A stretch of DNA of 20,000 nt from an uncultured virus (IMG/VR IMGVR_UViG_3300025845_000008) (Duplodnaviria; Heunggongvirae; Uroviricota; Caudoviricetes), in IMG/VR virus record IMGVR_UViG_3300025845_000008, positions 55,473 to 75,472 of that record; one strand, written 5' to 3'. The notes beneath the pieces were generated by a model. It was not told where the DNA came from. It made no database searches and saw nothing but the letters and a program-made list of their open reading frames with translations. Made by a program: the position numbers and the translations under genes. Below, piece by piece: positions 1,650-19,516 of this stretch; the first letter of the stretch is position 1, and the number at the start of each line of letters is the position of its first letter.

Positions 1650-2690
1650 GTGAAGAGAATTTTAGTAACTGACACCCACTTGGGTCATAAGAAGGCAAAT
1701 CAGAGATATCTTGATTTAACCCTTGAATTGTTTGAAGACATAGGTAACTATGCAGAAGAGCATGACATTAAAGAGTTAATACACCTTGGTGATTTCTTCG
1801 ATAATCGTAGAAATATGTCATTGATGACGCTTCATTACGCACGTAGAATTGGTCTAAACTTGCGTCATAGGTTTGACAGGTCTTATTTTATTTTAGGTAA
1901 TCACGATCTTTATTATAAAGACAGATATTTGCCCAATTCCCATGAAATTTTCTACTCCATGCCCCATATTCAAGTGGTAGATGAACTGACTGAGGTTGGT
2001 AATATGCTCCTTGTACCTTGGATTGTAGAGGGTTCTGATTGGATTGACCCTGTAGAATTCTTAAAACCTCTTCATGAAACCACCAAAGAATATTGTCTTG
2101 GTCATTGGGAAATCAATGGTGCCAAGATGAACGTATCAGGTCGTGTGGCAGAGGGAAGTAAGTTCAGTTGTACCGATTTTAGAAAGTTTAAGAAGACCTT
2201 TTCTGGTCACTTTCATACCCCCGGCACATATCCCATGAATATTCAGTACTTAGGTGCATCACACCACATGGATTTTAACGATTCAGGTCCGAGGGGGTGG
2301 TATGTATTTGATGATGAGGATGGTTCCCTTGAGTTCATTCGTTGGGATAAATCCCCGAAGTATATCAAATGGAGAGCATTACCTGACAATATCGTTCAGG
2401 GTGAATTTACCGACCAAATTGTTAAGATTGTCTTTGATGAGGATTATGGCACAACAATAAATAACCAAATAATTTCAGATGTTTATGGTACCAATCCCCT
2501 ACAGGTATTCACTGAGTACAAGTTTACGAAAGTGACCACAGATGATACAGTAGAGGAAGAATTGGAATTGTCTGGTCCTGTAGAGGTCCATAAGGGATTT
2601 GTTGAGAAGTCAGAGGTTCCTAAACACCTTAGTAAAAAGATTCTATCTAAGTTTATCGACCAAATTTATGAGGAAGTCAATGCCCAGTAG
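1650..2690 (+). CDS. 47: Recombination nuclease subunit, Mre11/SbcD-like (T4 gp47)
   Basis: Metallophosphoesterase motifs DTHLG, GDFFD, GNHD, GHWE, SGHFH; 346 aa; GTG start with GGAG RBS; lies upstream of gp46. Confidence 0.92.
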   Translation: MKRILVTDTHLGHKKANQRYLDLTLELFEDIGNYAEEHDIKELIHLGDFFDNRRNMSLMTLHYARRIGLNLRHRFDRSYFILGNHDLYYKDRYLPNSHEIFYSMPHIQVVDELTEVGNMLLVPWIVEGSDWIDPVEFLKPLHETTKEYCLGHWEINGAKMNVSGRVAEGSKFSCTDFRKFKKTFSGHFHTPGTYPMNIQYLGASHHMDFNDSGPRGWYVFDDEDGSLEFIRWDKSPKYIKWRALPDNIVQGEFTDQIVKIVFDEDYGTTINNQIISDVYGTNPLQVFTEYKFTKVTTDDTVEEELELSGPVEVHKGFVEKSEVPKHLSKKILSKFIDQIYEEVNAQ

Positions 2691-3309
2691 AATGATACAC
2701 GATATTTTACATCAAATTCTTGAGACAAGTGATGTGGAAATGCGTCACGAATCACAACGAACAACACGTACAAGTGGTGATTATTTTCAAAATTTGTATA
2801 TGGGTGCATTTAGACCCCAATTGATATTGAGAAGGGTGGTCAGACATAGTGAAATTAAAAACCTTCCCGCAGATGTGTACACGGAATTGTTAGATTTGTT
2901 TCAAAGAATGGTCAGAACTGGCGAACCAGTTAATATCAGTAGAAGATTCCGTGATGTGAGACTTTCAAGAGCGGAAATGTTACCAAACCAACATTCATTC
3001 GAATATGATATACGACTTGAATTTGTGTTGAGTGATTTGGATGAAGACCATTGGCGTAATGAATTAGAAGAAGACTCACGTTATGTGCCGGATTGGGGTG
3101 GCCGTAGACGTAGCGCACAAGTTCAACTTGACGGTCAGGGTAGGATACACCCACGTTATTTTGGTGAATCAACAGGTGGTATTGAACCTGTTTATAATAC
3201 TAAGCACCGCTACCGTGCCGCGTGGCCCGATGATGTTGAGATTTTCGGTCAAAAACCTGTAAAAAAGAAACAAGAGAAACACTTTGAGGATGACCTGTTT
3301 GAATTATGA
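2680..3309 (+). CDS. Hypothetical Arg-rich, Lys-poor protein ending HFEDDLFEL
   Basis: ATG at 2680 with AGGA RBS overlaps the end of gp47 and is more plausible than 2599; ATGA coupling to the next gene. Confidence 0.75.
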   Translation: MPSRMIHDILHQILETSDVEMRHESQRTTRTSGDYFQNLYMGAFRPQLILRRVVRHSEIKNLPADVYTELLDLFQRMVRTGEPVNISRRFRDVRLSRAEMLPNQHSFEYDIRLEFVLSDLDEDHWRNELEEDSRYVPDWGGRRRSAQVQLDGQGRIHPRYFGESTGGIEPVYNTKHRYRAAWPDDVEIFGQKPVKKKQEKHFEDDLFEL

Positions 3310-3881
3310 AAAGATATGTATACAGAAATCACCAACAATGTACATGTCCTACCAGACGTGAGATACGGGAAGCAGTTCATAATGATATGAACGAAAGACC
3401 ACAACCGATGAGTCAGATTGTGGTTCCAGTTATACCGAGTATGCCACCCGCTAGTCTTGAACATATGAGATATGATGTTGGTGACTCGTTCAGGATGACA
3501 AGATATATTTTTGAAACAGTGTGTTTCACAACTGCTATATGGGTAGAAGAACATGTAGAGAACGGTGTTTCATGTGGTCATTACACTACACACCACAGTT
3601 ACTTTCAGGTTCCCGAAGGGGTGGAGTTACCACAAACAGAGTTGTTGAATGAAGGTCATTCTTTTCATGACGAACATATTGAAGTATACCGAGGGTTGGA
3701 TGGCGAAGCATATTATAGATACAGAATGTTTGAACTGGAAAGACGATTAAGAGAACTGGAAGATACAAGAGTTATACTTCCTAGAGAAGATATTGATGAT
3801 ATACACGCAGGTAGAGCGATTATTGATAATCAACCTGTACGTCTGGAGTATTTTGAAGATGATGAAATTTTTAACATCTAA
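3306..3881 (+). CDS. Hypothetical protein with a single Lys in 191 aa, ending YFEDDEIFNI
   Basis: ORF track; ATGA overlap with the upstream gene. Confidence 0.75.
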   Translation: MKRYVYRNHQQCTCPTRREIREAVHNDMNERPQPMSQIVVPVIPSMPPASLEHMRYDVGDSFRMTRYIFETVCFTTAIWVEEHVENGVSCGHYTTHHSYFQVPEGVELPQTELLNEGHSFHDEHIEVYRGLDGEAYYRYRMFELERRLRELEDTRVILPREDIDDIHAGRAIIDNQPVRLEYFEDDEIFNI

Positions 3882-4065
3882 AAGATGGCAAACAATTAAA
3901 GATTGGTGTTGGTGGAAATTTGTGATTAAGGAAGATGAATTTCATCACAGTTTGAGTATAGACATGATTAAGGTCTTAAATGGTAAGACGACATTAGATG
4001 CAGAGTTAAAACGTATCGAGCCTCTTCGTGAGAGGGCGCATAAATTAGATTTAAAATGGGGTTAA
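3859..4065 (+). CDS. Hypothetical protein
   Basis: ATG at 3859/3862 after GGAG; fills the gap between neighbours. Confidence 0.6.
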   Translation: MMKFLTSKRWQTIKDWCWWKFVIKEDEFHHSLSIDMIKVLNGKTTLDAELKRIEPLRERAHKLDLKWG

Positions 4066-4067
4066 TA

Positions 4068-4406
4068 ATGACAGATAATGTGAGTTGTGACGTATGTGGT
4101 GCCACAGAAGACATTGAGTGTGAGATTCTATTGAAAGGTGAACAGGTAGATAGAATTTATCACCTATGTCCTGAACATTGGATTAAGGTTTACAGGAAAA
4201 CTTTGGAAGATTTTTTGGAAGCAAACGAGTATAAATGTAATTCGTATATTAAAATGGCGGTGGACAAGTTGATTTCTGATGCAGTAACCAGTACAAAAAT
4301 TAAGCAATTTTCCGATGAAGATGGTTTGGTTGATGTTGCACGTCTTGACCCACAAGAACTAAGAAGATTGCGTCCATATGAAATTGATGATGAGGATGAT
4401 ATATGA
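4068..4406 (+). CDS. Hypothetical protein with N-terminal CxxC...CxxH putative Zn site
   Basis: CDVC...LCPEH; acidic tail; ATG at 4068 just after the previous stop. Confidence 0.7.
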   Translation: MTDNVSCDVCGATEDIECEILLKGEQVDRIYHLCPEHWIKVYRKTLEDFLEANEYKCNSYIKMAVDKLISDAVTSTKIKQFSDEDGLVDVARLDPQELRRLRPYEIDDEDDI

Positions 4407-4906
4407 GTAATTATCATAAACATGCAATAGAGGAAATGAAGAGGATAGGATTCAGGTTTGTTGAAGATGGCTATCCAATTCAAGACCCAAATGAAGAATT
4501 TGATGTGAATGCGGAAATGGCTATGTGTGTCTTGGATATTCTTGATGTGTTTGGTAAACAAGGTCATTCAGGTATGTCAGCGTCATATTGTTTGCAGATT
4601 CTTGAGAAGGTCATGAAGTTTGAGCCTATAACACCCCTAACAGGTGATGATGATGAGTGGAATTGTATTGCTGATGAACGTACCAATGGTGAAGAGATTT
4701 ATCAAAATAAGCGATGTTCACACGTTTTCAAAAGGAACGGACAAGCGTATGATATAGATGGTAAGGTGTTTTGGGAATGGTATACTGATGGGGTAACTGG
4801 CGAGAGACATAAAACTTATTATACCTGTTCAGAGAGTCATGTAGACATAGAGTTTCCGTATACACCAACAAGAGTTGAAGAATATATGGAGAGTGGTTGT
4901 GAGTGA
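4403..4906 (+). CDS. Conserved phage hypothetical protein (GHSGxSA family)
   Basis: Motifs QGHSGMSA, PITPLTGDDDEW and YQNKRCSHVFK, recalled from a widespread uncharacterised phage family. Confidence 0.75.
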   Translation: MSNYHKHAIEEMKRIGFRFVEDGYPIQDPNEEFDVNAEMAMCVLDILDVFGKQGHSGMSASYCLQILEKVMKFEPITPLTGDDDEWNCIADERTNGEEIYQNKRCSHVFKRNGQAYDIDGKVFWEWYTDGVTGERHKTYYTCSESHVDIEFPYTPTRVEEYMESGCE

Positions 4907-5090
4907 AGATGTTCAAGTATTTAAAATATGTGACAACGAAGGATCAACAGTTTATCTTGAGCATGACGAAAATGTTATGAGAATACTGCAAGGTTTTGTT
5001 GACTGGGCCGAACCAAAACAAAAAATGATCGTTGAGGTTGTCGTGGTATCCAGAGAAGATTTGAATAAATTGCCAAGGAGTATGATCTAA
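4899..5090 (+). CDS. Small hypothetical protein
   Basis: GTG at 4899 after GGAG; its TAA overlaps the gp46 ATG. Confidence 0.6.
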   Translation: MSEDVQVFKICDNEGSTVYLEHDENVMRILQGFVDWAEPKQKMIVEVVVVSREDLNKLPRSMI

Positions 5091-7306
5091 TGGGCAAAAT
5101 AAACGTTGATAAGGTTGAATTAAAAAATTTCCTGTCATATGGGAATCAGTGGACAGTTTTTGATTTCCAGACAGGAATTAACGTTGTTCTTGGTCACGAT
5201 AAAGATAAAGAACGATCAAATGGTGCTGGTAAGACCAGTTTTCTAGAGGCTATTCCCTTTGCTCTGTTTGGTCAGATTAATAAAGGTATATCATTACCGA
5301 AAATTGTGAATTGGCGAAACGGTAAACAATGTGAGGTAAAACTTCACTTCCGTAAGGATGGTGTGTCTTACATGATCCACCGTGGAATTAAGCCCGGAAT
5401 CTTAACATTGTTTAAAGATGGTGTTGAGGTTCCAAAATTATCCGATAAGAGGTTGTTTCAGGCAGAACTTGAAGATGATTTGATTGGTATGGACTTTAAA
5501 GCCGCACAAGCACTCTTGTTTCAGAATGCTAATAACATGGTTTCGATGTTTAATACTCCAAAGGCAGACAAACGTAGATTTGTTGAGAAGTTCTTTAATC
5601 TTGAGATTTATTCTAAGGCAACAGAGGTCACCAATAAGAAGCTGAAAGGTGTTGATGACAAGATTTCAGAGATTAGGGTAGATGTGTCATATAAACAGAA
5701 GTCAATAGATGACCTCACCGCTAAGATAGAGTCATTTGTGGCACCTGATTTGGATGTATATCAAGGTAAAGTGGTATCTATTCAAACATTATATGACACA
5801 TTCACGGAAAATAATCCAGACCTTGAAGAACGTTTGAAAAATTTAAACAATTTATGCACAGAGTTGACCAAGAAGCGAGATGAACTGAATACTAAGGTTT
5901 CAAAAACCAAAGAGAAGCTTGGTGATGTGCGTCTTGAGGTTCGAGCATTAGAAACGGAAGCAACAACGAAACGTCAGCGTATAGAAAAGATCGGTGATTT
6001 ATCGGAACAGACAGATAAACTTATTAGGGTTAAGAGTGAGTTAATTAAGCTTTCAGACCTTAATAGAGAACCCACTAAAACTGAAATTGATAATCTTCTT
6101 GATGAATTGGGTAAACAAAAACAACTTCTAACGGAATGTAATACTTACATTCGCCAATACAAGAATGAGATTGAAAGCTTTGAAAATATGGAGACAACAT
6201 CTGAATCGGTATGTCCCACTTGTTTTCAAGAAGTTGATCATGAACATATTAAAAACCATATCGAGTCACAAGTTGCGGGACTGAAACAAGAATTAGTTAT
6301 TAAAAATGGTCATTTGTCTAACATTGAAGAGAATATCATCGAACTTAGCCACAAACACAAAGAAAAAAGTGATCTTCTTGATGGTATAAACTATAAGATT
6401 GAACAAAAAAATAAGTTAGAACAAGCACTTGCAAAACTATCAGGTGTTGAAGAAAAAGAGATAGAACTATCAGAGTTAAAAGTTCGTATTGATGAGATTG
6501 ACACAGTTATTCTACCAGAGTATCGTGATAAAGAATCTGCGTTGGTTGCTCAGATTGAAGCGGAAGATCTGGAATATAAGGATTCATTACTTGAAGTTAA
6601 CAATAACAATGCACTTATTGATAAATGTAAAGACACTATAAGAGAACGAGATAAGTTGTTGAATGAACTTGATACTGCTACGAGTATCCTTGATAATCAA
6701 AAGGAAATCCATGACAGGTTGATTGGTGAAAATGAAGCAAATATTGCGACTAAAGTAAAACTTGAGTCCGAGATTGTATCTACCCAAGCCGAAGTTAGAA
6801 AATTAGAAATAATGAAGGATTACCTAGAGCATATCAAGTTCACCTTAAAAGACGAGAATGTTAAACAATATGCTATTAGTAGTATTATCCCGTACTTACA
6901 GCAACAGATGAACCATTATCTCTCCGAGACAGGGAATTACTACGTTGAGTTGGATAACTGGTTGGACGGAACGATTAAAGGTTTTGGTGTCGGTGAATGT
7001 GACTTTGGAAATATGTCAGGTGGAGAGGGTAAGTCTATTGACCTCGCGTTAAAATTCGCTATGATGGATGTTGCACGTAGACAAGCTGGATCATATCTTG
7101 ATATTCTAGTACTAGATGAACTATTGGACAGTTCTATAGATAGTCATGGTTTAGATAAAATGATGGATATTGTCAGAATGAAACAAAGAGAAGACAACTT
7201 GAAGGTCTTTATCGTCTCTCATAGAGAGGAAGTTGCATCTTTTGATGCCGACAGAACATTTGTTGTGGAAAAAGAGCAAGGAATGTCCAATATTAGGGAA
7301 TTATAA
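5090..7306 (+). CDS. 46: Recombination ATPase, Rad50/SbcC-like (T4 gp46)
   Basis: KNFLSYGN, Walker A SNGAGKTS, long coiled coil with CPTC zinc hook, signature MSGGE, Walker B LVLDE-LLDSSID, H-loop VSH. Confidence 0.95.
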   Translation: MGKINVDKVELKNFLSYGNQWTVFDFQTGINVVLGHDKDKERSNGAGKTSFLEAIPFALFGQINKGISLPKIVNWRNGKQCEVKLHFRKDGVSYMIHRGIKPGILTLFKDGVEVPKLSDKRLFQAELEDDLIGMDFKAAQALLFQNANNMVSMFNTPKADKRRFVEKFFNLEIYSKATEVTNKKLKGVDDKISEIRVDVSYKQKSIDDLTAKIESFVAPDLDVYQGKVVSIQTLYDTFTENNPDLEERLKNLNNLCTELTKKRDELNTKVSKTKEKLGDVRLEVRALETEATTKRQRIEKIGDLSEQTDKLIRVKSELIKLSDLNREPTKTEIDNLLDELGKQKQLLTECNTYIRQYKNEIESFENMETTSESVCPTCFQEVDHEHIKNHIESQVAGLKQELVIKNGHLSNIEENIIELSHKHKEKSDLLDGINYKIEQKNKLEQALAKLSGVEEKEIELSELKVRIDEIDTVILPEYRDKESALVAQIEAEDLEYKDSLLEVNNNNALIDKCKDTIRERDKLLNELDTATSILDNQKEIHDRLIGENEANIATKVKLESEIVSTQAEVRKLEIMKDYLEHIKFTLKDENVKQYAISSIIPYLQQQMNHYLSETGNYYVELDNWLDGTIKGFGVGECDFGNMSGGEGKSIDLALKFAMMDVARRQAGSYLDILVLDELLDSSIDSHGLDKMMDIVRMKQREDNLKVFIVSHREEVASFDADRTFVVEKEQGMSNIREL

Positions 7307-7368
7307 TGGGTGTGGATAAAAAGACCATAGATGCAAAAAAATGTTGAGTGGGAGGATCTATTTGAGAT

Positions 7369-7634
7369 ATGAATAACTTCAAGAATGAAGATGATTGGGA
7401 TTTTTTTTTAATAACATCTTTGATAGTTACACAGAAGATGATTGGGGGATAATAGATAAAGTTGAGTATGGTAGCTGTTGTCTTAGAGAGTCACCGTTTG
7501 TCTCTATTGAGGGTATTCAGAAACAAATTGACAGTATCGAGTGTCCAACTGCTTTGGTATACTATGTACTTGTTGAAAATGGGGAAGTGTACATAAAACA
7601 TCGTGCATTGGAGGTAGAATTATATCATGAGTGA
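7369..7634 (+). CDS. Hypothetical protein split by a -1 frameshift at a T9 run (pseudogene, programmed shift or read error)
   Basis: ATG 7369 gives MNNFKNEDDWDFF and joins the 7395-7634 frame by a -1 shift at T7401-7409; both halves contain EDDW. Confidence 0.5.
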
Positions 7635-7788
7635 AGAAGAGAGATTATTAAGAGAGTTGATGTATACAATACGAATTGCACATCTTGATATGTCAGGAAA
7701 ACACAGATATGCTCTTAACCACAAATCACATCATTTGATTAATGAAATTAAAATTTATCTTTATGAGAAGGATACGAAAAAAGAGTGA
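7627..7788 (+). CDS. Small hypothetical protein (53 aa, below the ORF-track cutoff)
   Basis: MSEEERLLRELMYTIRIAHLDMSGKHRY...DTKKE*; upstream GGAGG; overlaps the previous stop. Confidence 0.65.
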   Translation: MSEEERLLRELMYTIRIAHLDMSGKHRYALNHKSHHLINEIKIYLYEKDTKKE

Positions 7789-7886: not shown

Positions 7887-7946
7887 TGGGGATTGTATTA
7901 ACAAACAATCTATTTTTTGGTATTATGGTTTTGAGAGGATAGAATA

Positions 7947-9009: not shown

Positions 9010-9320
9010 TGGAACAAAACCCATGTAAAGAAATAAACCTTGGTGACAAGACTGAGGTGGTTGCCGAGAAACATATCATTGAAGTTATTGGTCAGATTTC
9101 TCAGAAAGATTTGGATGATGGAACAGTTTTGATATTCCGTATCGATGATAGAAAATATTCAAGTGCTGTATTGAATAGGGTTGCTGAGAGCATCAAAAAA
9201 GCATGTATTGATACGTTTCAGGGACAAATTAAGGCTATGATTCTACCTTCATCGATAGAAGTTCAAATATTAAGAGATATTTTAAATCATTCCATAAAAC
9301 AAGGAGAAGATAATGAGTAG
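9009..9320 (+). CDS. Hypothetical protein
   Basis: TAATG coupling; AAGGA RBS. Confidence 0.7.
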   Translation: MEQNPCKEINLGDKTEVVAEKHIIEVIGQISQKDLDDGTVLIFRIDDRKYSSAVLNRVAESIKKACIDTFQGQIKAMILPSSIEVQILRDILNHSIKQGEDNE

Positions 9321-9780
9321 TCGATTTGAAGAAGCAACAACAGATGTGATGGATAAGGTGCAACAAGTTATTCGTAATAAGTTCCCTCAGTTGAATGGTT
9401 GTCATATTGAGGTTGTAATGGATACAAAGAAGCGCAAGTCAGGTGGTAAATTCGTCTTGGTAAAACTTGATAAAACATCTCCTATTTTACGTCACATTTC
9501 TGCAACAAATGCAAACCCAGAAGGTGTGGATTATATTCTGTATCTTGACAAGACAGTTTATGTTGAAATGAGTGATACTGATAAAGAGCGTATTATAGCA
9601 CATGGTTTGTATCACGCGGATACCGATTTCGAGAAAGAAGTTCCTTATGGTATACGTAAACCTACCGTACAGACGTTTTATGAAGAAATCGCTGACAATC
9701 AAGACGATGCTCGTTGGGCGGAACGTCTCGATATAATGGCGGAGGGTATTTATGAAAGAGATGCAGAAGAATCAAATTAA
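9313..9780 (+). CDS. Phage metallopeptidase-like protein with degenerate HExxH (HGLYH)
   Basis: Pattern DYILYLD..Y..MSD..KERIIAHGLYH resembles the putative phage metallopeptidase family; AAGGAG RBS. Confidence 0.65.
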   Translation: MSSRFEEATTDVMDKVQQVIRNKFPQLNGCHIEVVMDTKKRKSGGKFVLVKLDKTSPILRHISATNANPEGVDYILYLDKTVYVEMSDTDKERIIAHGLYHADTDFEKEVPYGIRKPTVQTFYEEIADNQDDARWAERLDIMAEGIYERDAEESN

Positions 9781-10270: not shown

Positions 10271-10457
10271 TCGAAAATGTAATCACTTATGGTTGGAATA
10301 TCGTAGAAAGTGGGTTGAATATATTCCTCATGAACAGAATCCAAAGTTTAACCGTGAAGGTGCTTATATATTATCGCATGTATATTGCGCGGAATGTGGT
10401 GAGGTTAGAGAGGTTGTGAATGATGGAAACCGGATTAAATTCAGAACAATTCCATAA
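10248..10457 (+). CDS. Small hypothetical protein, putative Zn-binding (CxH...CxxC)
   Basis: CNHLW...CAECG; AGGA RBS. Confidence 0.65.
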   Translation: MMWKRLFNRKCNHLWLEYRRKWVEYIPHEQNPKFNREGAYILSHVYCAECGEVREVVNDGNRIKFRTIP

Positions 10458-10950
10458 TCTAATAGTAAAAAGTAGTGGTAATACTATGATTTGGGCACCA
10501 AGACAGTCAGGTAAAACTACGGCTTTGGTTAGAGAGTTTTTGACTACACCCAATTCCCTTTTTTATACTGTAAATTATGGACAGAAAAGGAGTGTGGAAC
10601 GAATTTGTTATGAGTTGGATGTGCCATTCAGACGAAACGATATACGTATTATGAATGAAGAATCTATAAGATCTTATAACACAAGAACATTTTTTATAGA
10701 CGAAATTGATCATTATGATGGAGATTTATATAGGTTATTGGTACCCATAAGCTTGACGAGTACGAGAATGATTGCTATATCTACTCCTCATCGACCAAGG
10801 TTGAAGGGAACTTACGCCAGTATATTTGAAAGTGAGTATAAATTAAACCATGAAGGTCTGACCGATTGGAGATGCCCAGAATCGGATATAGTTATAACGA
10901 TAAATGTGAATAACCATTTCGAAAGAGAAGGAGAATTATTTAGAATATGA
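10420..10950 (+). CDS. Stand-alone P-loop ATPase resembling the terminase large-subunit ATPase domain
   Basis: Walker A APRQSGKTT, Walker B FFIDE, motif III ISTP; only 176 aa; ends HFEREGELFRI. Confidence 0.75.
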   Translation: MMETGLNSEQFHNLIVKSSGNTMIWAPRQSGKTTALVREFLTTPNSLFYTVNYGQKRSVERICYELDVPFRRNDIRIMNEESIRSYNTRTFFIDEIDHYDGDLYRLLVPISLTSTRMIAISTPHRPRLKGTYASIFESEYKLNHEGLTDWRCPESDIVITINVNNHFEREGELFRI

Positions 10951-11775: not shown

Positions 11776-12852
11776 ATGTCAGATGTTTTTGAAGATATCA
11801 AAAAGAAACTCATGGATGCCAGTAAAGGCAAAAGAGTCATGGTTCTTTCTGAAAGTGAGGTTGCACAGATAAATACATGGCTGTTTACTCCAACATATGA
11901 CCTGAATAGAATATTGTCGGGTTCTTTATATAAAGGTGTCGCTGAAAAGACACACACGCTTCTTGTGGGACCAGAGGCGTCAGGTAAATCATCATTTATG
12001 TGTTTGAACCTTGCCGCAGCACAGAAGCTTGGATATACCCCCATCATCATTAATGCGGAAGGTGCATGGACAGCGGAGTTCGTTTCGCGTTGGGGTCTTG
12101 ATGCAACTAAGGCTATGGTTATTAACTCTTCCAGTGTTGAGGATATTCACCGTGATCTTGCCAATATTAAATCAGAAGGGTTCACAAAACTCGCCATTGC
12201 TTTGGATTCCATAGGAGCATTGAGTTCTAACAAGGTCGTAGATGATGCAGACAAGGGTGATATTAAAGCCGACCAAGGTTCCTTGCAGAAGAAAATCAAA
12301 GCCATGATGAAGACAATGGTTGATATTGTTAAATTCCAAGACAGTATCGCTTTTTCTGCTGGTCATTATTACGGCAATCCAAGTGGTTATGGTGACCCTG
12401 AACAGATTGGTGGCGGTAAGTATCCGAGACTTGCTGCAGACTATATTATAACCCTAAAGAAATTCCTTTTATATGAAAATCCAAACGCAAAGGCCGCTGC
12501 GCGTGGAGCAGTTTTGGGTACGGAGATTCATGCCGCAACTATCAAAAACCGTTTTGCACCCCCATTCCAAGAAGCATTATTTGAAATAAACTACCAGAAT
12601 GGTGTTAATAAAATGGCAGGTATCGTGTCCGTTGCTACTGAAATGGGTCTGATCGAGAAGGGTGGGTCGTGGTATACAATTCCGTGTATGGATATTAAGG
12701 CACAAGGCGAAGGTAAACTATACGAAGCAATCCTTCAACAAGACCCAAAACCTTTGTTGGAGGGTATAGAAAACGTGTTAAAAACAAAGGGTTATAGTAC
12801 ACAGAATGCACAACTTGAAGACGAATTAGGTAGTAGTGAGCCAATAGAATAA
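11776..12852 (+). CDS. uvsX: RecA-like recombinase (T4 UvsX)
   Basis: DLNRILSGSL, Walker A GPEASGKS, NAEGA, Walker B ALDSIGAL, ADQG, IGGG, KNRF, KGGSWY. Confidence 0.93.
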   Translation: MSDVFEDIKKKLMDASKGKRVMVLSESEVAQINTWLFTPTYDLNRILSGSLYKGVAEKTHTLLVGPEASGKSSFMCLNLAAAQKLGYTPIIINAEGAWTAEFVSRWGLDATKAMVINSSSVEDIHRDLANIKSEGFTKLAIALDSIGALSSNKVVDDADKGDIKADQGSLQKKIKAMMKTMVDIVKFQDSIAFSAGHYYGNPSGYGDPEQIGGGKYPRLAADYIITLKKFLLYENPNAKAAARGAVLGTEIHAATIKNRFAPPFQEALFEINYQNGVNKMAGIVSVATEMGLIEKGGSWYTIPCMDIKAQGEGKLYEAILQQDPKPLLEGIENVLKTKGYSTQNAQLEDELGSSEPIE

Positions 12853-13581: not shown

Positions 13582-14423
13582 TGAACATAGCGGTGAACAA
13601 TATTGATGATGGGTTGACTGTTGAGTTATCAAAAATATGTGATGTTGTTGACGTTGTTGACAAACCTAAAGGTGTATTTATACAATGGTCCACCCCTGAC
13701 AATAAAAGTCTATTCGTCAGACAGACCAATATGATAGAGAAGTGCATTAAGAATAAATTACCCATGATCATATTTGATGGAGACCAGAAGATTAGTCCTG
13801 ATGAAGCTAGTTTTCTGGTGTCCGAGGGCGCATTTTTATGGGAATCATCCGTTAGTGATAGAATGTTTTTTTCATACCAGCCTGTATGGGGTGAAATAAA
13901 AACTCCTGATAAAATACCGTTGATAGATAAGCCAACTGGTGTTGATTTAGTGTATATGTCACCTTTGACAAAAAAGTTATCTACATTTAAAAGATACTAT
14001 CAACCAATGTCAGAGTTGGGTGGATATGATGTTTTGTTTTTTGATTCAGTTGGAAATCAGACAATCAATCGAAAAGTTGAGGAGATGGGTATTAATATCA
14101 CATCAGAATCAATAAACTTTGATATTAAGTCACTGATACTACTTGGAACCGATCATGAATATCAAACAGGTAGACTTGATCCCTATCTATTCAATTATCT
14201 GGAAAGTGGTATTTTACCGTTGTTACCGATAGAACATAGATGGTATCATTCGGTATTTGATGGTATGGTGGTGGGTACCGATTTTGATGTGGAATATATA
14301 TTGAAGACATGGGATAAGATATCTTTTGGTTCTATATGTGATATATATAAAAATTTGGATATATATCTCCCTGAATGTAATGTTAAGAATGTAGCAAAAA
14401 GAATAGTTAATTACTTTTCATGA
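13581..14423 (+). CDS. Hypothetical protein, possibly a GT-B glycosyltransferase-like fold
   Basis: Two alpha/beta halves; ILLG..EYQTGRLDPYLFNYLESGILPLL resembles the C-terminal donor-binding region of GT-B enzymes. The ORF is solid, the function is weak. Confidence 0.45.
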   Translation: MNIAVNNIDDGLTVELSKICDVVDVVDKPKGVFIQWSTPDNKSLFVRQTNMIEKCIKNKLPMIIFDGDQKISPDEASFLVSEGAFLWESSVSDRMFFSYQPVWGEIKTPDKIPLIDKPTGVDLVYMSPLTKKLSTFKRYYQPMSELGGYDVLFFDSVGNQTINRKVEEMGINITSESINFDIKSLILLGTDHEYQTGRLDPYLFNYLESGILPLLPIEHRWYHSVFDGMVVGTDFDVEYILKTWDKISFGSICDIYKNLDIYLPECNVKNVAKRIVNYFS

Positions 14424-14466
14424 GAGATGCGTTAGAATTATTACCATGTAAAATATGAGGAGATGT

Positions 14467-14775
14467 ATGAAGTTTGAAATAACCAAGAATGGTACTGGTA
14501 TTATTAGGATAAACAAAGATACATATCTATCATTCGGTTCAAATGACAATATAAAAATGGTGTTGATTCGATATAATAATGGTCATAACATTGAGAGTAA
14601 ATTTTTTCCTATCTCGATGCTAAAGCTTCCCAGAATGACAACTAAATCTATAGGTCTTAAAAATATTAAAATAATTCGGGATTTAGTGAGAGATAAGTTG
14701 GTGGATGGTGTGTTACCCCTAAAGGCTGTATCATTAATAGGCGAATCTATTAATAAAAAAAGCGACTCTCAATAA
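14467..14775 (+). CDS. Basic hypothetical protein
   Basis: GAGGAG RBS before ATG 14467. Confidence 0.65.
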   Translation: MKFEITKNGTGIIRINKDTYLSFGSNDNIKMVLIRYNNGHNIESKFFPISMLKLPRMTTKSIGLKNIKIIRDLVRDKLVDGVLPLKAVSLIGESINKKSDSQ

Positions 14776-14782
14776 ATTTACC

Positions 14783-14811
14783 TTGCATCCCTGATCGAAT
14801 TTTGGTATATT
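14783..14811 (+). promoter_or_regulatory. sigma70-type promoter (extended -10)
   Basis: TTGCAT-17 bp-TATATT, with TGn before the -10. Confidence 0.65.
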
Positions 14812-14843
14812 AAATCGTAACCGATTGACGAAAGGAAAAAATC

Positions 14844-14963
14844 ATGGGATACCGTTCTGACGACTTAAAACGACCATCATACGTTCCTCGTAAGCAACAA
14901 GATTTCCTTGTCATTAAACCTAATAAAATCAAGAAAGGTTCTCCGAAAAATGATCAAGTATAA
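14844..14963 (+). CDS. Small basic peptide (39 aa)
   Basis: AAAGGA RBS directly after the promoter; MGYRSDDLKRPSYVPRKQQDFLVIKPNKIKKGSPKNDQV*. Confidence 0.55.
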   Translation: MGYRSDDLKRPSYVPRKQQDFLVIKPNKIKKGSPKNDQV

Positions 14964-15186
14964 AAGGAATCCCAAATATATTGAAATATATTCATCGGGA
15001 TCCCTTGATGATGCAAATGTTTTGTTGGATATTGCTCAAAAAATAGGCAGACAAATTGGTTTTGACAGGGATGATATTAATCTTATTCTTGATGAGATGA
15101 AATCTGGTGATCATGAGAATCTAGTTCAAATTTTTAATGATCATTTTGAGGATTATTTTTGTAATTGTGTTGTTATATATCGTTGA
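14950..15186 (+). CDS. Conserved small phage hypothetical protein
   Basis: ILDEMKSGDHENLVQIFNDHF resembles a common phage family (EM.SGDYE.L...F...F); ATG 14950 preferred over TTG 14908. Confidence 0.7.
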   Translation: MIKYKRNPKYIEIYSSGSLDDANVLLDIAQKIGRQIGFDRDDINLILDEMKSGDHENLVQIFNDHFEDYFCNCVVIYR

Positions 15187-15194
15187 TTTTTTTG

Positions 15195-15223
15195 TTGACA
15201 ACGTGCATTCTCACTGTTAGGAT
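15195..15223 (+). promoter_or_regulatory. sigma70-type promoter for clpB
   Basis: TTGACA-17 bp-TAGGAT with extended -10 TG and an upstream T-tract. Confidence 0.75.
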
Positions 15224-15259
15224 AAATTTCATTGTTAATTGAAACGAAAGGGAATTATT

Positions 15260-17503
15260 ATGGTTTGGTCCACAAATATTGAGAATGAAAGAACTTTTGA
15301 TAATAATTTTATTGGTCGATTGTCAGGTGATCAACGACAAGTATCAAGACCTGATCATTTCCGTGTAGAGGTGGCTGATGCCCCTGTAGATGATCGTCTT
15401 ATCAATGATAATATGTTGATTTTTGGGCGTGATCTTGTCGAAGAATCCCGTCAAGGTCATCTTGATCCGGTTATCGGTCGTGATGATGAAATCCGCCGTA
15501 TGATTCGCATTCTATCTCGCAAAACAAAAAACAACCCTGTCCTCATTGGTGAGCCGGGTGTTGGTAAAACTTCCGTTGTTGAGGGTCTGGCACAACGTAT
15601 TGTTTCTGGTGATGTTCCTGATGGTCTAAAAGAAAAGGTTATTTATTCTTTAGATCTTGGTTCTCTCATGGCAGGAACTAAACACCAAGGTGAACTCGAG
15701 GAACGGGTGAAATTTGTCCTTGATGCGGTTCGTGAGCGTGAGGGCAAAGTCATGTTGTTTATTGATGAAATTCACAACATGGTTGGTATGGGTTCCTCTA
15801 ATGGCGTTGACTTTGGTAACATGCTGAAACCCATGCTGGCTCGTGGCGAACTCCGTTGTATTGGCGCTACTACTTTGGATGAGTATCGTACCGGGGTAGA
15901 AAAAGACGCCGCTTTATCTAGGCGTTTTCAGACTATTTTGGTCGATCAGCCTAATGTCGATGATACTGTTAGCATTCTTCGGGGGTTGAAAGAGACTTAT
16001 GAGATTTATCATGGGGTCACGGTTCGAGATAACGCTTTGATTGCGGCCGCCAAACTAAGCCATCGATACATTAGTGATCGTTTTCTCCCTGATAAAGCTA
16101 TTGATCTTGTGGATGAGGCATGTGCCCAAGTTCGAACTGAACTTGATTCCTCTCCAGCAGAACTTGATGGTGTGACTCGTAGAATTCAACAACTTACCAT
16201 CGAAGAAAAATCTTTAATGAAAGAAGACGATGGTTTGTCTGTTGTTCGTCTTGGCAAAATTCGTGAAGAAAGAGATCTTTTGTTAATCGAACAAAAAATT
16301 CTTCAAGATCAATGGAGTGAAGAAAAAGATAACATTAAAAATCTGGTCGAACTTCGCTCTAAATTGGAAACCGCTCGTAAAGAGTTGGAAACTTGTGAAC
16401 GTCTTAATCAATTAGATCGAGCCAGTGAATTGAAGTATGAAATTATTGTTCAGATAGAATTCGAACTACACAACTACATCAAAAACATCGGTGATATGAG
16501 TATTCTTCATGATTCTATTGATGAGGCTGAAATTGCTAAAGTAATTAGCCGTTGGACTGGAATTCCTGTAGATCGTATGACTGAGGATCAGAGTTCTAAA
16601 ATCCTCAATCTCGATGTTGAATTACATAAACGTCTCGTGGGTCAGGATGAAGCTGTGCAATTGGTTAGTGAAGCTATGATTCGCAGTCGTAGTGGGATTA
16701 AAGACCCTAACCGTCCCATTGGTTCTTTCATTTTTCTTGGACCAACAGGGGTCGGTAAGACTGAATTGGCTAAAGCACTTACCGAAGTTATGTTCGATAC
16801 TGAGCAGAATATCATCCGTATTGATATGTCTGAGTATATGGAAAAACATAGTGTTTCCCGTATGATTGGTGCCCCTCCGGGTTACGTCGGATTTGATGAT
16901 GGGGGTCAATTGACTGAGAAGGTTCGTAGAAAACCGTTCAGTGTCATTCTTTTTGATGAAATTGAAAAGGCTCACCCTGATGTTTTTAATGTTCTTCTTC
17001 AAGTTCTGGATGATGGTCGTATTACTGATGGTCAAGGTCGCACTGTTGATTTTAAAAATACTGTTATTATCATGACAAGCAATATTGGAAGTCAACATTT
17101 GCTTACAGGAATTGACGGTTGGGGTGAGATTAAAGATTCTACTCGTAATCGGGTATTTGAAGACCTTAAAAGGGGGTTTCGACCTGAATTTCTGAACCGT
17201 GTTGATGATATTATTTTGTTCAAACCTTTAACTAAAGATAATGTCAAGATTATCGTTGGATTTCTTCTGAGTGATATTCGTAAGCGTTTGGAAGATCGAC
17301 AAATCAAACTGGAAATCACCGATGAGGCTAAAAATTATGTAGCAGATGTTGCGTATGACCCTATCTACGGGGCAAGACCTCTCAAACGGTATTTGAGTGG
17401 CACTCTCGAAACTCAGATCGGTAAAGCCCTTCTTAGTGGCCAAATTAAAAACGGTGATACTATCACTGTAACCGCTGATCAGAACGGTCTGATTGTTCAA
17501 TAA
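15260..17503 (+). CDS. clpB: ClpB/Hsp104-type AAA+ disaggregase lacking the Clp N-terminal domain
   Basis: [11 protein letters not shown]1 GEPGVGKT / [16 protein letters not shown], long M-domain coiled coil, NBD2 [37 protein letters not shown]; no IGF loop. ATG 15260 has an AAGGGA RBS. Confidence 0.95.
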
Positions 17504-17540
17504 AAGTAAGGGGTGACCAGAAGGTCACCCCTTACTTTTA
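17501..17540. terminator. Bidirectional intrinsic terminator
   Basis: Perfect 18-bp inverted repeat TAAAAGTAAGGGGTGACC-agaa-GGTCACCCCTTACTTTTA. Confidence 0.85.
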
Positions 17541-17553
17541 CAAGGAGAAAAAC

Positions 17554-17802
17554 ATGGAACCCAAATCATTCGAAGTAGTTACACCGTCACCATATTTTAA
17601 GATTACTTTTGGTTGTGGTAACCGAGCGTTCTATAAGGATGGATATATCGACGAAACTTGTGATTACGAGGGTGACTTGGAAGAAATTCTTATATACAAT
17701 CAGGAAAGAGCCGAACTCCTTATTAAAAAGGTTTTAGAGTTTTATGGCGTACCCGAAACGGATCTACCAGAAAATATGAACGTTGCTTTGACAATTTATT
17801 GA
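17554..17802 (+). CDS. Hypothetical protein
   Basis: AAGGAG RBS. Confidence 0.75.
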   Translation: MEPKSFEVVTPSPYFKITFGCGNRAFYKDGYIDETCDYEGDLEEILIYNQERAELLIKKVLEFYGVPETDLPENMNVALTIY

Positions 17803-17818
17803 TAAAGGGGTATTAAAA

Positions 17819-18301
17819 ATGGTAGGAATTAGAAGTCGTGGAATGGGCGGGGGTCAATGGACTGACCATGAAGATTTGGATCTATCGAAACCTTTGACAA
17901 TTATTTGTCATGAAGGGAATCTTCAAGTTGACGTAACTGATGCAATTGAAATCAATTTTGATTACACTCGTTATCATGGTAATCGTGTTGTAAAAATTGA
18001 TCCTGTGGCGAATGCATGGATTGAATATATACTTGGGTATCAGATTGAGCGTGATCTACAGCCACAAGACCGTCCAGACTCTATGGCACATGTTATTGGT
18101 TTATGTGACCTTCCGATTAAGTTGATGCAGAAGGCTGGTCAGGGGTTGCCAATTTTCATTAGAGAACCAGAAGTATCACTTCATCCAAGTCAACAGAGAC
18201 GTGTTTCGGACTTTTTATCCGCAATTTCTCAACATACTGATAATGCAACTGGAAGTTTCACTGAACTACCAAGAGGCTATAAAAATGGTTGGAGTGTATA
18301 A
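17819..18301 (+). CDS. Protein containing an isolated ABC-ATPase Walker-B/D-loop segment
   Basis: IFIREPEVSLHPSQQ matches the hhhEEPExxLHPxxQ motif of AAA_15/AAA_21/OLD-type ATPases; no Walker A. Confidence 0.6.
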   Translation: MVGIRSRGMGGGQWTDHEDLDLSKPLTIICHEGNLQVDVTDAIEINFDYTRYHGNRVVKIDPVANAWIEYILGYQIERDLQPQDRPDSMAHVIGLCDLPIKLMQKAGQGLPIFIREPEVSLHPSQQRRVSDFLSAISQHTDNATGSFTELPRGYKNGWSV

Positions 18302-18309
18302 TAAAATCC

Positions 18310-18343
18310 TTGACACTCACCCCATATTTGGATAGTATGGGGT
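18310..18343 (+). promoter_or_regulatory. sigma70-type promoter with an overlapping inverted repeat
   Basis: TTGACA-17 bp-TAGTAT; ACCCCATA...TATGGGGT spans the spacer and -10. Confidence 0.75.
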
Positions 18344-18370
18344 TATCTCGTTCTACAAAAGGAAAATGTT

Positions 18371-18643
18371 ATGGCGAAACTATTTAAAAACCTCACCCTC
18401 AAAGAACAATACAAAATGTATTTTGAGTCTGTCCGTGGTGCTAAAGAAATTCCTTCCAAAAACAAATATTCTGTGTTAGAATGGGTTACGTCAAAAGGCG
18501 ATAAAAAGTACATTCTTTTGGGGTCTTCTGGATCAGTAAGGGCTAATTCCAAACCAGTTGTCGCCAATTCATTCTCTATCGCAAGTAATGCGTTAAAAGA
18601 TGATGTTAAAAAATGGGCAATCGACAAAGGTTATGAACTTTAA
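18371..18643 (+). CDS. Basic hypothetical early protein
   Basis: AAGGA RBS; first gene after the promoter. Confidence 0.75.
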   Translation: MAKLFKNLTLKEQYKMYFESVRGAKEIPSKNKYSVLEWVTSKGDKKYILLGSSGSVRANSKPVVANSFSIASNALKDDVKKWAIDKGYEL

Positions 18644-18661
18644 TTAATAGGAGATATAAAA

Positions 18662-19516
18662 ATGCAGTTTCTTAATCAATTGAATCCTTTTTACCCTGTA
18701 ATCCGAAATAAACTTTTCACCCCTTTCACCTATGAAGGTGACGAAACTCCTACAGATTTGTATGTTGACCGTGATGCACTGTTGAATGGTGAAAACGGTA
18801 AAGTTCTTGGTACTGTTGGTCCTCACTACAAACTTATGTTGAACGAAGAGGTTTTTGATATTTTCTCAGAAGCCTTTGCCGATCTTCCGATTGAATCAGT
18901 TTGTGACCACCTGAACTGGAAACAGAACCGTTGGCAACGTGATTTTATCCTCGATGGTGATCAGTTCAATATGTCAATTGGCGATGAAATTATTAAAACC
19001 AAGGTTTCAATTTTCAACGGGTACGATGGTAAATCCAGTGTAGGTTTCACTGTTGCCGCATACCGTGATAACGGAAATGTTACTTTCTTGAACAATATGT
19101 TCACTCAGACCTATTCGCACGTTCAACGCGGTCTGGTTGCCCGTATCCGTGAAGACTTTGCAGCAAAACTTGAACTTTTCCGTCAAACCGCTGAAATGTT
19201 TCGCCGTTTTGATCAAGAGGTGTTTACGGGTGAGCAATTTGAGTCTTTTGTTAATGGCCTGGTCGATGAAAGTGGTGGTCGCAATGGCTATTTGTCCGAA
19301 AATCAGGCGCGGTTAATTATCAACTCTTATAATCAACTATTTACTCGTCTCGGAGTTCGACAAACGCGCTTCGGTGCATATACGGTTCTTTCGGCAATCG
19401 CATCCGAACGACCGGGACGCGGTAACAGTTCTCCTATTTTCACGGCCGCTCACAAACGTATCGAAAAAGTTGTCGATGATTTCTTTTCTGATGCCGGAGA
19501 TTTGTTCATCATCTAA
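18662..19516 (+). CDS. DUF932/DUF945-like protein
   Basis: VLGTVGPHYKLMLNEEVF and IFNGYDGKSS resemble the family motifs (LG.V...Y....N; NS.DG.S); AGGAG RBS; ends FFSDAGDLFII. Confidence 0.7.
   Translation: MQFLNQLNPFYPVIRNKLFTPFTYEGDETPTDLYVDRDALLNGENGKVLGTVGPHYKLMLNEEVFDIFSEAFADLPIESVCDHLNWKQNRWQRDFILDGDQFNMSIGDEIIKTKVSIFNGYDGKSSVGFTVAAYRDNGNVTFLNNMFTQTYSHVQRGLVARIREDFAAKLELFRQTAEMFRRFDQEVFTGEQFESFVNGLVDESGGRNGYLSENQARLIINSYNQLFTRLGVRQTRFGAYTVLSAIASERPGRGNSSPIFTAAHKRIEKVVDDFFSDAGDLFII

What the first reader, a model, noticed from the sequence alone, without database searches (positions are those of the whole stretch)
2680..19516. Shared C-terminal peptide tag on unrelated phage proteins: candidate addressing/docking system
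Seen: four non-homologous ORFs and a micro-ORF end alike: KHFEDDLFEL* (3309), EYFEDDEIFNI* (3881), NHFEREGELFRI* (10950), DFFSDAGDLFII* (19516) and VEWEDLFEI* (7372). The consensus is aromatic-x(1-4, acidic)-[DE]-[LI]-F-x-[IL]-COOH, with F always third from the end. The codons differ, so conservation is at protein level. The tag sits on different folds (terminase-like ATPase, DUF932-like, two unknowns). Known precedent: T4 gp43/gp33/gp55 dock on the gp45 clamp via C-terminal LDFL-type tails, and bacterial SSB uses DDDIPF. Inference: a short linear motif routes these accessory proteins to one hub (clamp, capsid-loading machinery, the phage ClpB or a host factor), or mimics a host tail.
Basis: partly seen in the sequence, partly recalled or inferred. 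Interest (0 to 1): 0.85.

Follow-up and report, generated by a model that had tools for sequence, protein, structure and literature searches.

The report
Shared docking tail on phage proteins
Several unrelated proteins of an uncultured T4-like phage and its relatives end in the same short acidic, phenylalanine-containing tail, most likely a hook onto one shared partner that is still unidentified.

Summary
In the 75-kb contig, [DE][LI]Fx[ILV]-stop occurs in 5 of 3359 six-frame termini. These are exactly the four ORFs and the 13-aa micro-ORF. A 164-kb contig of the same phage adds a sixth case and a 57-kb contig a seventh.

The independent test is a 236-kb relative with 51% clamp identity. There 10 of 395 ORFs end this way, against about 0.09 expected.

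Tails are kept in orthologues: 6 of 6 for the P-loop ATPase, where tail residues are as invariant as Walker A/B, and 4 of 4 in variant form for the gene after SbcD. Distant DUF932 homologues lack it (1 of 58). Carriers are mostly non-homologous, and linkers are Pro-rich or flexible.

This reads as a clade-specific short linear docking motif. The partner is not identified. The phage has a gp45/PCNA-fold clamp, and T4 gp33, gp55 and gp43 are the closest precedent. However, this clade's polymerase tail (…AFNAFFG) belongs to a different motif class. I put the clamp at about 0.35-0.4. The micro-ORF looks like a remnant of a tagged gene.

The parts
2680..3309 (+). g54: ORF of unknown family directly after SbcD, about 209 aa from the ATG at 2680, which has a GAGGA 5-6 nt upstream. 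The longest frame starts at TTG 2599. Ends ...GQKPVKKKQEKHFEDDLFEL*.
   Evidence: No Pfam or PHROG family. A non-homologous 123-aa ORF at the same position in relative L076 ends ...THFDDELFSI*.
3306..3881 (+). g55: 191-aa ORF of unknown family. Ends ...EYFEDDEIFNI*.
   Evidence: Orthologues keep variants of the tail in 4 of 4 cases, counting this one: G004 ...DFFENDINFNVE*, L076 ...QHFDEKIFEID*, L077 ...EWFEDENIFEME*. The protein atlas was uninformative.
7331..7372 (+). 13-aa micro-ORF MQKNVEWEDLFEI* in the 88-nt gap after SbcC. It is probably the 3' remnant of a tagged gene.
   Evidence: An ATG overlapping the SbcC stop (TAATG, 7306) opens a 13-codon frame that runs into an A7 run, and the tag lies in the +1 frame. 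Relatives have full tagged ORFs here: G004 127 aa ...DEDLFSV*; L076 64 aa ...EDLFQI* and 95 aa ...KDLFEI*. The sequence is identical in three contigs.
10420..10950 (+). g71: stand-alone P-loop (ASCE) ATPase domain of 176 aa, resembling the terminase large subunit N-domain or a helicase N-domain. Ends ...NHFEREGELFRI*.
   Evidence: weak terminase and AAA hits; structure neighbours Terminase_6N/ResIII, TM 0.64-0.70. Six of 6 family members keep the tail. F167, L173 and F174 are among only 14 invariant columns, alongside Walker A/B.
18662..19516 (+). g87: DUF932-family protein of 284 aa. Ends ...DFFSDAGDLFII*.
   Evidence: In the AF2 model (pLDDT 88.8) the last helix is 262-277 and residues 282-284 are below pLDDT 50. 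The tail is kept in the 84%-identical P0044 (...GDLFAI*) and in the 41%-identical G004 orthologue (...SDLFVVS*). It is absent in 57 of 58 representatives found.

Best explanation
The tails are a clade-specific short linear docking motif. It has an aromatic-Phe (or Leu) anchor, 2-5 mostly acidic residues, then [LI]-F-x-[ILV] at or within a few residues of the C-terminus, and it is usually carried on a flexible or Pro-rich linker. It tethers otherwise unrelated accessory proteins of this uncultured T4-like myovirus lineage to one shared partner.

Shown: the motif is real, terminal, enriched about 100-fold, selected at the protein level, conserved in orthologues as strongly as catalytic residues, and gained by many non-homologous proteins in at least three related phages.

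Inferred: it works by docking. About 0.8 for docking as such.

Inferred with less support: the partner is the phage's own gp45/PCNA-type sliding clamp (G001 150147-150884, about 35 kb downstream of the window). On this reading the recombination/replication-module proteins (the genes after SbcD and SbcC, the small ATPase, DUF932, the small ORF beside gp32) and a set of small ORFans would ride on loaded clamps, as T4 gp33, gp55, gp43 and ligase do. About 0.35-0.4 for the clamp specifically.

The 13-aa micro-ORF is most likely what a deletion left of such a gene.
For: Enrichment and position. Independent replication of a pattern defined on the window: G004 has 10 of 395 against about 0.09 expected. 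There are further cases in L076 and L077.

Protein-level selection: synonymous codons differ. The g71 family keeps the tail in 6 of 6 members at 27-51% identity, with tail residues invariant. The g55 family keeps it in 4 of 4 and the g87 close relatives in 2 of 2.

Carriers are unrelated: among 22 tagged proteins only 4 pairs show BLASTP similarity, namely 3 orthologue pairs and 1 paralogue pair.

Linkers: Pro-rich or basic stretches precede the tag, and the g87 tail is unstructured beyond its last helix. The motif tolerates C-terminal extensions, as T4 gp55 does (...SLDFLYEAND*).

Clamp-specific points. The phage encodes clamp-loader subunits and a 245-aa protein whose model (pLDDT 91) matches PCNA, beta and gp45. 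T4 gp45 6drt_A gives TM 0.71/0.75. T4 clamp ligands are 'hydrophobic and acidic C-termini' with core LDFL[FYL] (passages of PMC2988020 and of PMC6212786; sequences read from T4). T4 gp33 ends ...TLDFLL*, with Phe third from the end as here. Most tagged genes of this phage lie in the SbcCD/UvsX/gp32 module. One 60-aa tagged ORF sits two genes after gp32, close to where T4 has gene 33.
Against: The clade's DNA polymerase ends ...EHILEQNQAFNAFFG(G). Of 53 polymerase homologues, 0 carry [DE][LI]Fx[ILV], and nearly all end in ...FF plus 0-3 residues. No other protein of G001-G006 carries the polymerase-type tail. In T4, by contrast, all clients share one motif.

The gp55-like late sigma ends in a Lys-rich stretch without the tag. 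The 60-aa ORF has no detectable similarity to T4 gp33 or to any PHROG, and it is missing at that position in G004.

Most G004 carriers are small ORFans in a hypervariable region with no sign of DNA-related function. G006, whose clamp is 37% identical, has no tagged ORF (0 of 344). No binding was measured.
Confidence: 0.4

Rival explanations
1. The same kind of docking motif, but the hub is not the phage clamp. It would be another conserved phage or host protein. Candidates are the host beta clamp, the recombination machinery next to which the tagged genes cluster (SbcCD, UvsX, gp32), the clade-specific ClpB-like AAA+ protein, and host RNA polymerase.
For: The tag class differs from the polymerase tail throughout the clade. 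The positions directly after SbcD and after SbcC hold tagged ORFs again and again, although the ORFs themselves are not homologous. This holds for the window, G004, L076 and L077, and in weaker form for L081-L087 at 35% SbcD identity, e.g. ...DNKLFEVE*. T4 gp46.2, the gene after gene 47, ends ...EVFDI*.

The ClpB-like gene is 67% identical between G001 and G004, has no BLAST hit in G005 or G006, and sits next to g87 in both. The ...[DE][DE]LF core matches positions 3-5 of the bacterial beta-clamp motif QL[SD]LF. That motif is recalled and is also named. The bipartite anchor layout would suit a two-subsite pocket.
Against: No candidate could be tested. The host is unknown. The conserved Gln of the beta motif is absent. 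The tagged genes are not confined to the SbcCD neighbourhood (g87, h246, G002_117, the G004 55-67 kb cluster). ClpB-type proteins are not known to read such tails (my own knowledge).
Confidence: 0.35
2. The tail is a degradation or unfolding signal. It would let a protease or AAA+ unfoldase, of host or phage origin, clear or remodel a set of early accessory proteins at a set time.
For: Many carriers are small ORFans typical of early regions. The phage encodes a ClpB-like AAA+ protein and a conserved small metallopeptidase in the same module. PF18894 lies at window 9313-9780 and is 77-79% identical in L076 and L077. Hydrophobic C-termini are classic degrons (my own knowledge).
Against: Degrons read through the free C-terminus should not tolerate the 1-10 residue extensions seen in orthologues and sister clades. 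The tail is conserved on a P-loop ATPase as strongly as its Walker motifs, which fits function better than disposal. No ClpP-type or PDZ protease was seen in the annotation of G000 and G001.
Confidence: 0.12
3. The tail acts within or between copies of the same protein, for example as a strand or helix that closes an oligomer. The likeness between proteins would then be convergence on a generic acidic-hydrophobic ending.
For: Distant DUF932 homologues also end in a short acidic stretch followed by alternating hydrophobic residues, e.g. ...DELALVVA*...EDLMLAA*. For that family, some C-terminal element therefore looks intrinsic.
Against: Convergence on the same five-residue pattern in at least 15 unrelated proteins of one lineage, and its near absence in G006 (0 of 344), is hard to explain without a common reader. 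The g87 tail is not packed in the model.
Confidence: 0.08
4. Chance, or a nucleotide-level signal at gene ends such as a ribosome-binding site or spacer for the next gene.
For: GAGGA or GGAG-like strings occur in the acidic part of three tails. Two tagged genes overlap the next start codon (ATGA).
Against: None of the other 3354 six-frame termini of the contig match. Codons vary at synonymous sites. The SD-like strings lie 13-15 nt from the next ATG (read and the coordinates). g87 and h246 are not followed by overlapping genes. The amino-acid pattern is kept in orthologues with diverged DNA.
Confidence: 0.02

Closest known systems
T4 sliding-clamp-binding motif (LDFL[F/Y/L]) of gp43, gp55, gp33 and DNA ligase, which docks on gp45
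   Same: A short hydrophobic-plus-acidic peptide at or near the C-terminus, on a flexible linker, shared by unrelated proteins of a T4-type phage. It tolerates a few trailing residues. The phage has a gp45/PCNA-fold clamp and a gp44/62-type loader. gp33 has Phe third from the end.
   Different: The sequence class differs ([DE][LI]Fx[ILV] with an upstream aromatic-Phe anchor, against LDFLF). The phage's own polymerase does not carry it, and neither does the gp55 homologue. There are many more clients, mostly ORFans (at least 7 in this phage and at least 14 in G004). Binding is untested.
Bacterial beta-clamp-binding motif QL[SD]LF / QLxLxL (Dalrymple motif)
   Same: An acidic or Ser residue followed by Leu-Phe. 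It is often at the extreme C-terminus and present on many unrelated clients of one hub.
   Different: There is no conserved Gln-Leu at positions 1-2, and two further residues follow the Phe. The clamp encoded by this phage is of the trimeric gp45/PCNA size (245 aa), not beta-type. The host is unknown.
Clamp-docking tails reported earlier in this scan on other large phages and archaeal viruses (e1-5643168, e1-6426279 and others; unchecked AI notes)
   Same: A lineage-specific C-terminal peptide shared by unrelated proteins of a large virus that encodes its own clamp.
   Different: In those notes the DNA polymerase carries the same tail and the clients are DNA-modifying enzymes. Here the polymerase has another tail, and the clients are recombination-module proteins and ORFans.

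Membership tests
Clients of a T4-type (gp45) sliding clamp via a clamp-binding motif | Short hydrophobic and acidic peptide at or near the C-terminus, outside the folded body | tested here: met
   T4 reference tails read
Clients of a T4-type (gp45) sliding clamp via a clamp-binding motif | The phage encodes the clamp and its loader | tested here: met
   Clamp: AF2 pLDDT 91 with PCNA, beta and gp45 as top Foldseek matches. Loader: phrog_168, phrog_225, PF16790.
Clients of a T4-type (gp45) sliding clamp via a clamp-binding motif | Motif highly similar to the tail of the phage's own DNA polymerase, as in T4 (PMC2988020, passages) | tested here: not met
   The polymerase ends ...AFNAFFG(G). 0 of 53 polymerase homologues carry the tag. 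No other ORF has the polymerase-type tail.
Clients of a T4-type (gp45) sliding clamp via a clamp-binding motif | Late-transcription factors (gp55, gp33) carry the motif | tested here: not met
   The gp55-like sigma (phrog_234) ends ...DDIKKKKNSK. No gp33 homologue was found. The 60-aa tagged ORF near gp32 has no similarity to T4 gp33.
Clients of a T4-type (gp45) sliding clamp via a clamp-binding motif | Physical, motif-dependent binding to the clamp | not testable with these tools
   Needs a binding assay or a structure.
Bacterial beta-clamp-binding motif QL[SD]LF | Gln at position 1 and a hydrophobic residue at position 2 | tested here: not met
   These positions are Asp, Glu, Gly or Ser in all tails.
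Bacterial beta-clamp-binding motif QL[SD]LF | [S/D]-L-F at positions 3-5 | tested here: met
   [DE]-[LI]-F in all window tails.
C-terminal degrons read through the free carboxyl end (ssrA-type) | Signal must be at the extreme C-terminus | tested here: not met
   Orthologues and sister clades carry 1-10 extra residues after the motif: G004_399, G004_407, G003_131, L076 and L077 g55 orthologues, L081-L084.
IxI-type tails docking on a phage small heat-shock protein | The phage Hsp20 co-occurs with the tags | tested here: not met
   PF00011 is found in G001 and G006 but not in G004 (98% complete, most tags).
DUF932 (PF06067), for g87 only | Sequence homology to the family | tested here: met
   g87 itself is below the reporting threshold. 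However, 44 of 48 of its phmmer homologues (E down to 1.9e-40) match PF06067.
Terminase-large-subunit/helicase-type ASCE ATPase domain, for g71 only | Walker A/B and fold likeness | tested here: inconclusive
   Weak PHROG terminase hits, E 7e-6 and 4e-5. Atlas structure neighbours Terminase_6N/ResIII at TM 0.64-0.70. Walker A/B invariant. There is no nuclease or second helicase lobe.

The most novel reading that the evidence does not exclude
The tag is an addressing code separate from the polymerase's clamp-binding tail. It would define a second client class, with its own site or its own hub, that recruits a fast-turning-over set of accessory ORFans and recombination-module proteins in a lineage of uncultured T4-like jumbo phages. 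New genes would join the network simply by acquiring about 10 C-terminal residues.
Probability: 0.35. Interest if true: 0.8.

Novelty: new variant of a known kind. Interest (0 to 1): 0.62.

Why it matters
If the partner is found, one small peptide would assign a working context to more than twenty phage proteins of unknown function at once. These include a DUF932 protein, a family that is widespread on phages, plasmids and genomic islands and that had no function in the 13 papers returned by a full-text search for 'DUF932' (titles and abstract starts seen).

It would also show how large phages wire new accessory genes into an existing machine by adding a short tail. And it would show whether a T4-type clamp can serve two distinct motif classes, as PCNA does with PIP and APIM (recalled), or whether a different hub exists. 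The motif is simple enough to use as a search key for clients in related metagenomic phages.

Tried and rejected
1. Co-folding. Complex prediction with three copies of the clamp (alignment A1) and residues 192-236 of the g54 frame returned 'no answer' (score 0.02, controls not run). I take it neither for nor against binding.

2. Radical-SAM link. The phage has 8 PF04055 matches, but G004, which has the most tags, has 0. Rejected.

3. Phage Hsp20 as reader. Its own end ...RLEI* resembles an IxI motif, but it is absent from G004. Rejected for the phage protein; a host sHsp is untestable.

4. h246 as a gp33 homologue. There is no BLASTP alignment to T4 gp33 and no PHROG. Only its position near gp32 remains. 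The 213-aa ORF between them has no family hit, so calling it gp59-like rests on size and position alone.

5. Cultured relatives. There was no megablast or tblastn match for the window, g87, g55 or the clamp in 50,697 phage records. SbcD reaches only 26-35% identity to cyanophage and Klebsiella T4-likes.

6. Fold of g87. There is no Foldseek PDB match at E <= 1e-3, and the best VIA-align Z is 7.3, within the background range.

7. Atlas look-up of g55: uninformative.

8. Clade-specific gene list as a hub filter. Of the 130 proteins shared with G004, 55 (each at least 80 aa) lack a hit in G005/G006. That is too many to discriminate.

9. T4 late-promoter word TATAAATA. No site lies within 80 nt upstream of a called gene in the window's stretch of G001. 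This gives only weak timing information.

10. The search for related loci with the 48-row DUF932 alignment failed for lack of a conserved stretch. A 7-row alignment worked but showed no shared tails around distant DUF932 genes, apart from isolated ...PDELFVIE*...QDLFVI* and ...DRLFEV* ORFs.

Full report
WHAT THE DNA IS

The window is the last 20 kb of a 75,472-bp virus contig, with all genes on the + strand. That contig is 99.99% identical to bases 39,507-114,979 of a 163,735-bp IMG/VR contig (G001, CheckV 68% complete). A 56,989-bp contig of the same phage (G002) extends further.

Annotation shows a T4-type myovirus. It has a sheath, tube and baseplate wedge, a gp55-like late sigma, portal, prohead protease, major head protein and terminase. 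It also has a gp32-type SSB, gp44/gp62-type clamp-loader subunits, primase, a family-B polymerase, an RNase H-like exonuclease, and an array of at least 21 tRNAs.

The window itself holds SbcD (1650-2690), SbcC (5090-7306), a Tad3 anti-Thoeris homologue (4403-4906), a SLOG-like protein, a small metallopeptidase (9313-9780), a UvsX/RecA recombinase (11776-12852) and a ClpB-like AAA+ protein (15239-17503).

No cultured phage is close. The window, g87, g55 and the clamp found nothing in 50,697 phage records. SbcD reaches 26-35% identity to T4-like cyanophages and Klebsiella phages.

THE OBSERVATION

All five termini are as described. In a six-frame scan of the contig, [DE][LI]F.[ILV]-stop hits 5 of 3359 stop-to-stop frames of 12 aa or more. 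All five lie on the coding strand in non-overlapping coding positions.

G001 adds a sixth case. It is a 60-aa ORF (136368-136550...DHFDKESDLFEV*) two genes downstream of the gp32-type SSB. G002 adds a seventh (104 aa...SEDLFRI*).

Among ORFs of 50 aa or more, G001 has 5 of 239. Shuffles of the whole protein or of its last 20 residues give 0.05, with at most 2 in any of 2000 shuffles. The motif is positional: 5 of its 14 occurrences anywhere in G001 proteins are at the exact end. Codons differ between copies. The tails also share an upstream aromatic-Phe anchor (HF, YF, FF, EW), separated from [LI]F by 2-5 mostly acidic residues.

INDEPENDENT REPLICATION

I used an alignment of 27 homologues of the clamp candidate to fetch relatives. 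I then read whole records: G004 (235,765 bp, 98% complete, clamp 51% identical), G003 (88,775 bp, 60%), and G005 and G006 (37%).

The pattern had been defined on the window. In G004 it hits 10 of 395 ORFs, against 0.07-0.09 expected, and 10 of its 22 occurrences anywhere are terminal. Looser forms add G004_138, 142, 379, 399 and 407. Seven of the G004 carriers are small ORFans in a 55-67 kb region without family hits.

Elsewhere the counts are lower. G002 has 1 of 114 and G005 1 of 136. G003 has 0 of 154 at the end, but its 55-aa ORF at the position of the 60-aa one carries ...DFFEEEKNLFIV followed by ten more residues. G006 has 0 of 344.

Among 22 tagged proteins, only four pairs are detectably related. 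Three are orthologue pairs and one is a paralogue pair.

CONSERVATION IN ORTHOLOGUES

- g71 is a stand-alone P-loop domain resembling terminase or helicase N-domains. Six of six family members, at 27-51% identity, keep the tail. The tails are NHFEREGELFRI, DHFEREGGLFRI, EHFEEELFTI, KYFDEGLFRI, NIFEEKGELFVI and DHFEGDLFKV. F167, L173 and F174 are among only 14 invariant columns, the others being Walker A/B and two more sites.
- g55: four of four members keep a variant (...IFNI*...IFEID*...IFEME*...INFNVE*).
- g87 is a DUF932 protein by transitive homology (44 of 48 homologues hit PF06067). The 84%-identical representative ends ...GDLFAI* and the G004 orthologue ends ...SDLFVVS*. Of the 58 representatives found, however, 57 lack the tag. 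Many of these end in other acidic-then-alternating-hydrophobic tails. The tag is therefore specific to the lineage, not to the family.
- Tagged ORFs recur directly after SbcD and directly after SbcC even when they are not homologous. Examples are L076 (123 aa ...THFDDELFSI*; 64 aa ...EDLFQI*; 95 aa ...KDLFEI*) and G004 (127 aa ...DEDLFSV*). A sister group at 35% SbcD identity shows ...DNKLFEVE*...PDELFIIEEDE* and ...PDELFVIE*. The motif thus tolerates trailing residues.

THE MICRO-ORF

SbcC ends TAA at 7304-7306. An ATG overlapping it (TAATG) opens MGVDKKTIDAKKC*, which runs through an A7 run. The tagged 13-codon frame (7331-7372) lies +1 to it. Relatives have full-length tagged genes, translationally coupled to SbcC, at this spot.

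The sequence is identical in three contigs from different samples, so it is not an assembly slip. I read it as the two ends of a deleted or decayed tagged gene. A live 13-aa peptide, or a frameshifted product of about 22 aa, is not excluded.

WHAT THE TAIL DOES

The features fit a short linear docking motif. It sits at chain ends. It lies behind Pro-rich or basic linkers, for example ...GQKPVKKKQEK-HFEDDLFEL and ...PPNPPTYFDSGLFVV. In the g87 model it is unstructured beyond the last helix (helix 262-277; residues 282-284 below pLDDT 50). It is conserved like catalytic residues, and it is spread over unrelated carriers in one lineage.

A nucleotide-level cause is contradicted by the six-frame control, by the synonymous variation, and by tails on genes without overlapping successors. 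A degron that reads the free C-terminus fits poorly with the tolerated extensions.

WHICH PARTNER

The obvious candidate is the phage clamp. The 245-aa protein after the clamp-loader genes has no Pfam, PHROG or PDB sequence match. It nevertheless folds with pLDDT 91 into a PCNA/beta/gp45 fold, and T4 gp45 6drt_A gives TM 0.71/0.75.

[quoted passage not shown] I read them from the T4 record: gp43 ...ASLDFLFG*, gp55 ...SLDFLYEAND*, gp33 ...TLDFLL*. The present tails resemble gp33 in having Phe third from the end and an aliphatic last residue. They resemble gp55 in tolerating acidic extensions.

Two expectations of the T4 model fail, however.

1. The polymerase of this clade ends ...EHILEQNQAFNAFFG(G). 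Across 53 polymerase homologues the tail is a ...FF class, and none carries the tag. No other protein carries the polymerase-type tail.
2. The gp55 homologue has no tail, and no gp33 homologue was found.

The clamp may still serve two motif classes, or the hub may be another protein. Alternatives I could narrow are these:

- The phage Hsp20 is excluded by its absence from G004.
- The radical-SAM cluster is excluded in the same way.
- The ClpB-like protein is clade-specific, 67% conserved and adjacent to g87. It stays possible.
- The host beta clamp stays possible. The [DE]LF core matches positions 3-5 of QL[SD]LF, but the Gln is missing and the host is unknown.
- SbcCD stays possible, given the clustering of tagged genes around it. 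T4 gp46.2, the gene after gene 47, ends ...EVFDI*, which may be coincidence.

VERDICT

The reading as a docking tail is well supported. The hub is open, with the clamp first at about 0.35-0.4.

Earlier notes of this scan describe clamp-docking tails in other large phages, but there the polymerase shares the tail (unchecked). This case differs in that respect and in its clients. I class it as a new variant of a known kind.

Noticed in passing
G000 37,069-52,890 (= G001 about 76.5-92.4 kb), upstream of the window: A dense cluster of radical-SAM genes (8 PF04055 matches in G001, 6 in G003, 0 in G004), together with an aminotransferase-like gene and several unknown ORFs. This is an unusually large rSAM set for a phage.
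   Followed up: partly
window 4403-4906: A Tad3 (type I Thoeris inhibitor) homologue, PF25185 with E 2e-35, sits between SbcD and SbcC.
   Followed up: no
window 15239-17503 and G001 128030-128530: The phage encodes a ClpB-like two-ring AAA+ protein without a Pfam N-domain hit (first AAA hit from about residue 78), and an Hsp20. The ClpB-like gene is 67% identical in G004; the Hsp20 is absent there.
   Followed up: partly
G001 115,180-125,400 (just past the window end): An array of at least 21 tRNA genes (ARAGORN), including three tRNA-Met and three tRNA-Ser.
   Followed up: no
G004 180,418-184,224: In the relative, SbcC is in two pieces (80 aa and 815 aa) separated by a 358-aa ORF with no hit in our phage. 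This looks like an insertion, perhaps a mobile endonuclease or an intein-like element.
   Followed up: no
P0045-P0101 (homologues of window 18662-19516): Many phage DUF932 proteins end in a short acidic stretch followed by alternating hydrophobic residues, often ...L-x-[LV]-[AT]-A* or ...LAA*. The family as a whole seems to carry lineage-specific C-terminal peptides.
   Followed up: partly
L153 35168-35431 (T4 gene 46.2) and L153 9410-10729 (T4 dda): T4 gp46.2, the gene directly after gene 47 (SbcD), ends ...EVFDI*, and Dda ends ...DVFYV*. Both fit a loosened form of the tag. This may be chance.
   Followed up: no
G000 19,379-26,989 and G001 20,338-26,910: Two giant ORFs (2536 aa and 2190 aa) lie in the structural region with almost no family hits. 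The only hit is a short HNH-like stretch in the first.
   Followed up: no
P0022: A 61%-identical clamp homologue is deposited under a 'Candidatus Izimaplasma bacterium HR2' metagenome-assembled genome. This is a possible host lead for the clade, or a mis-binned phage contig.
   Followed up: no
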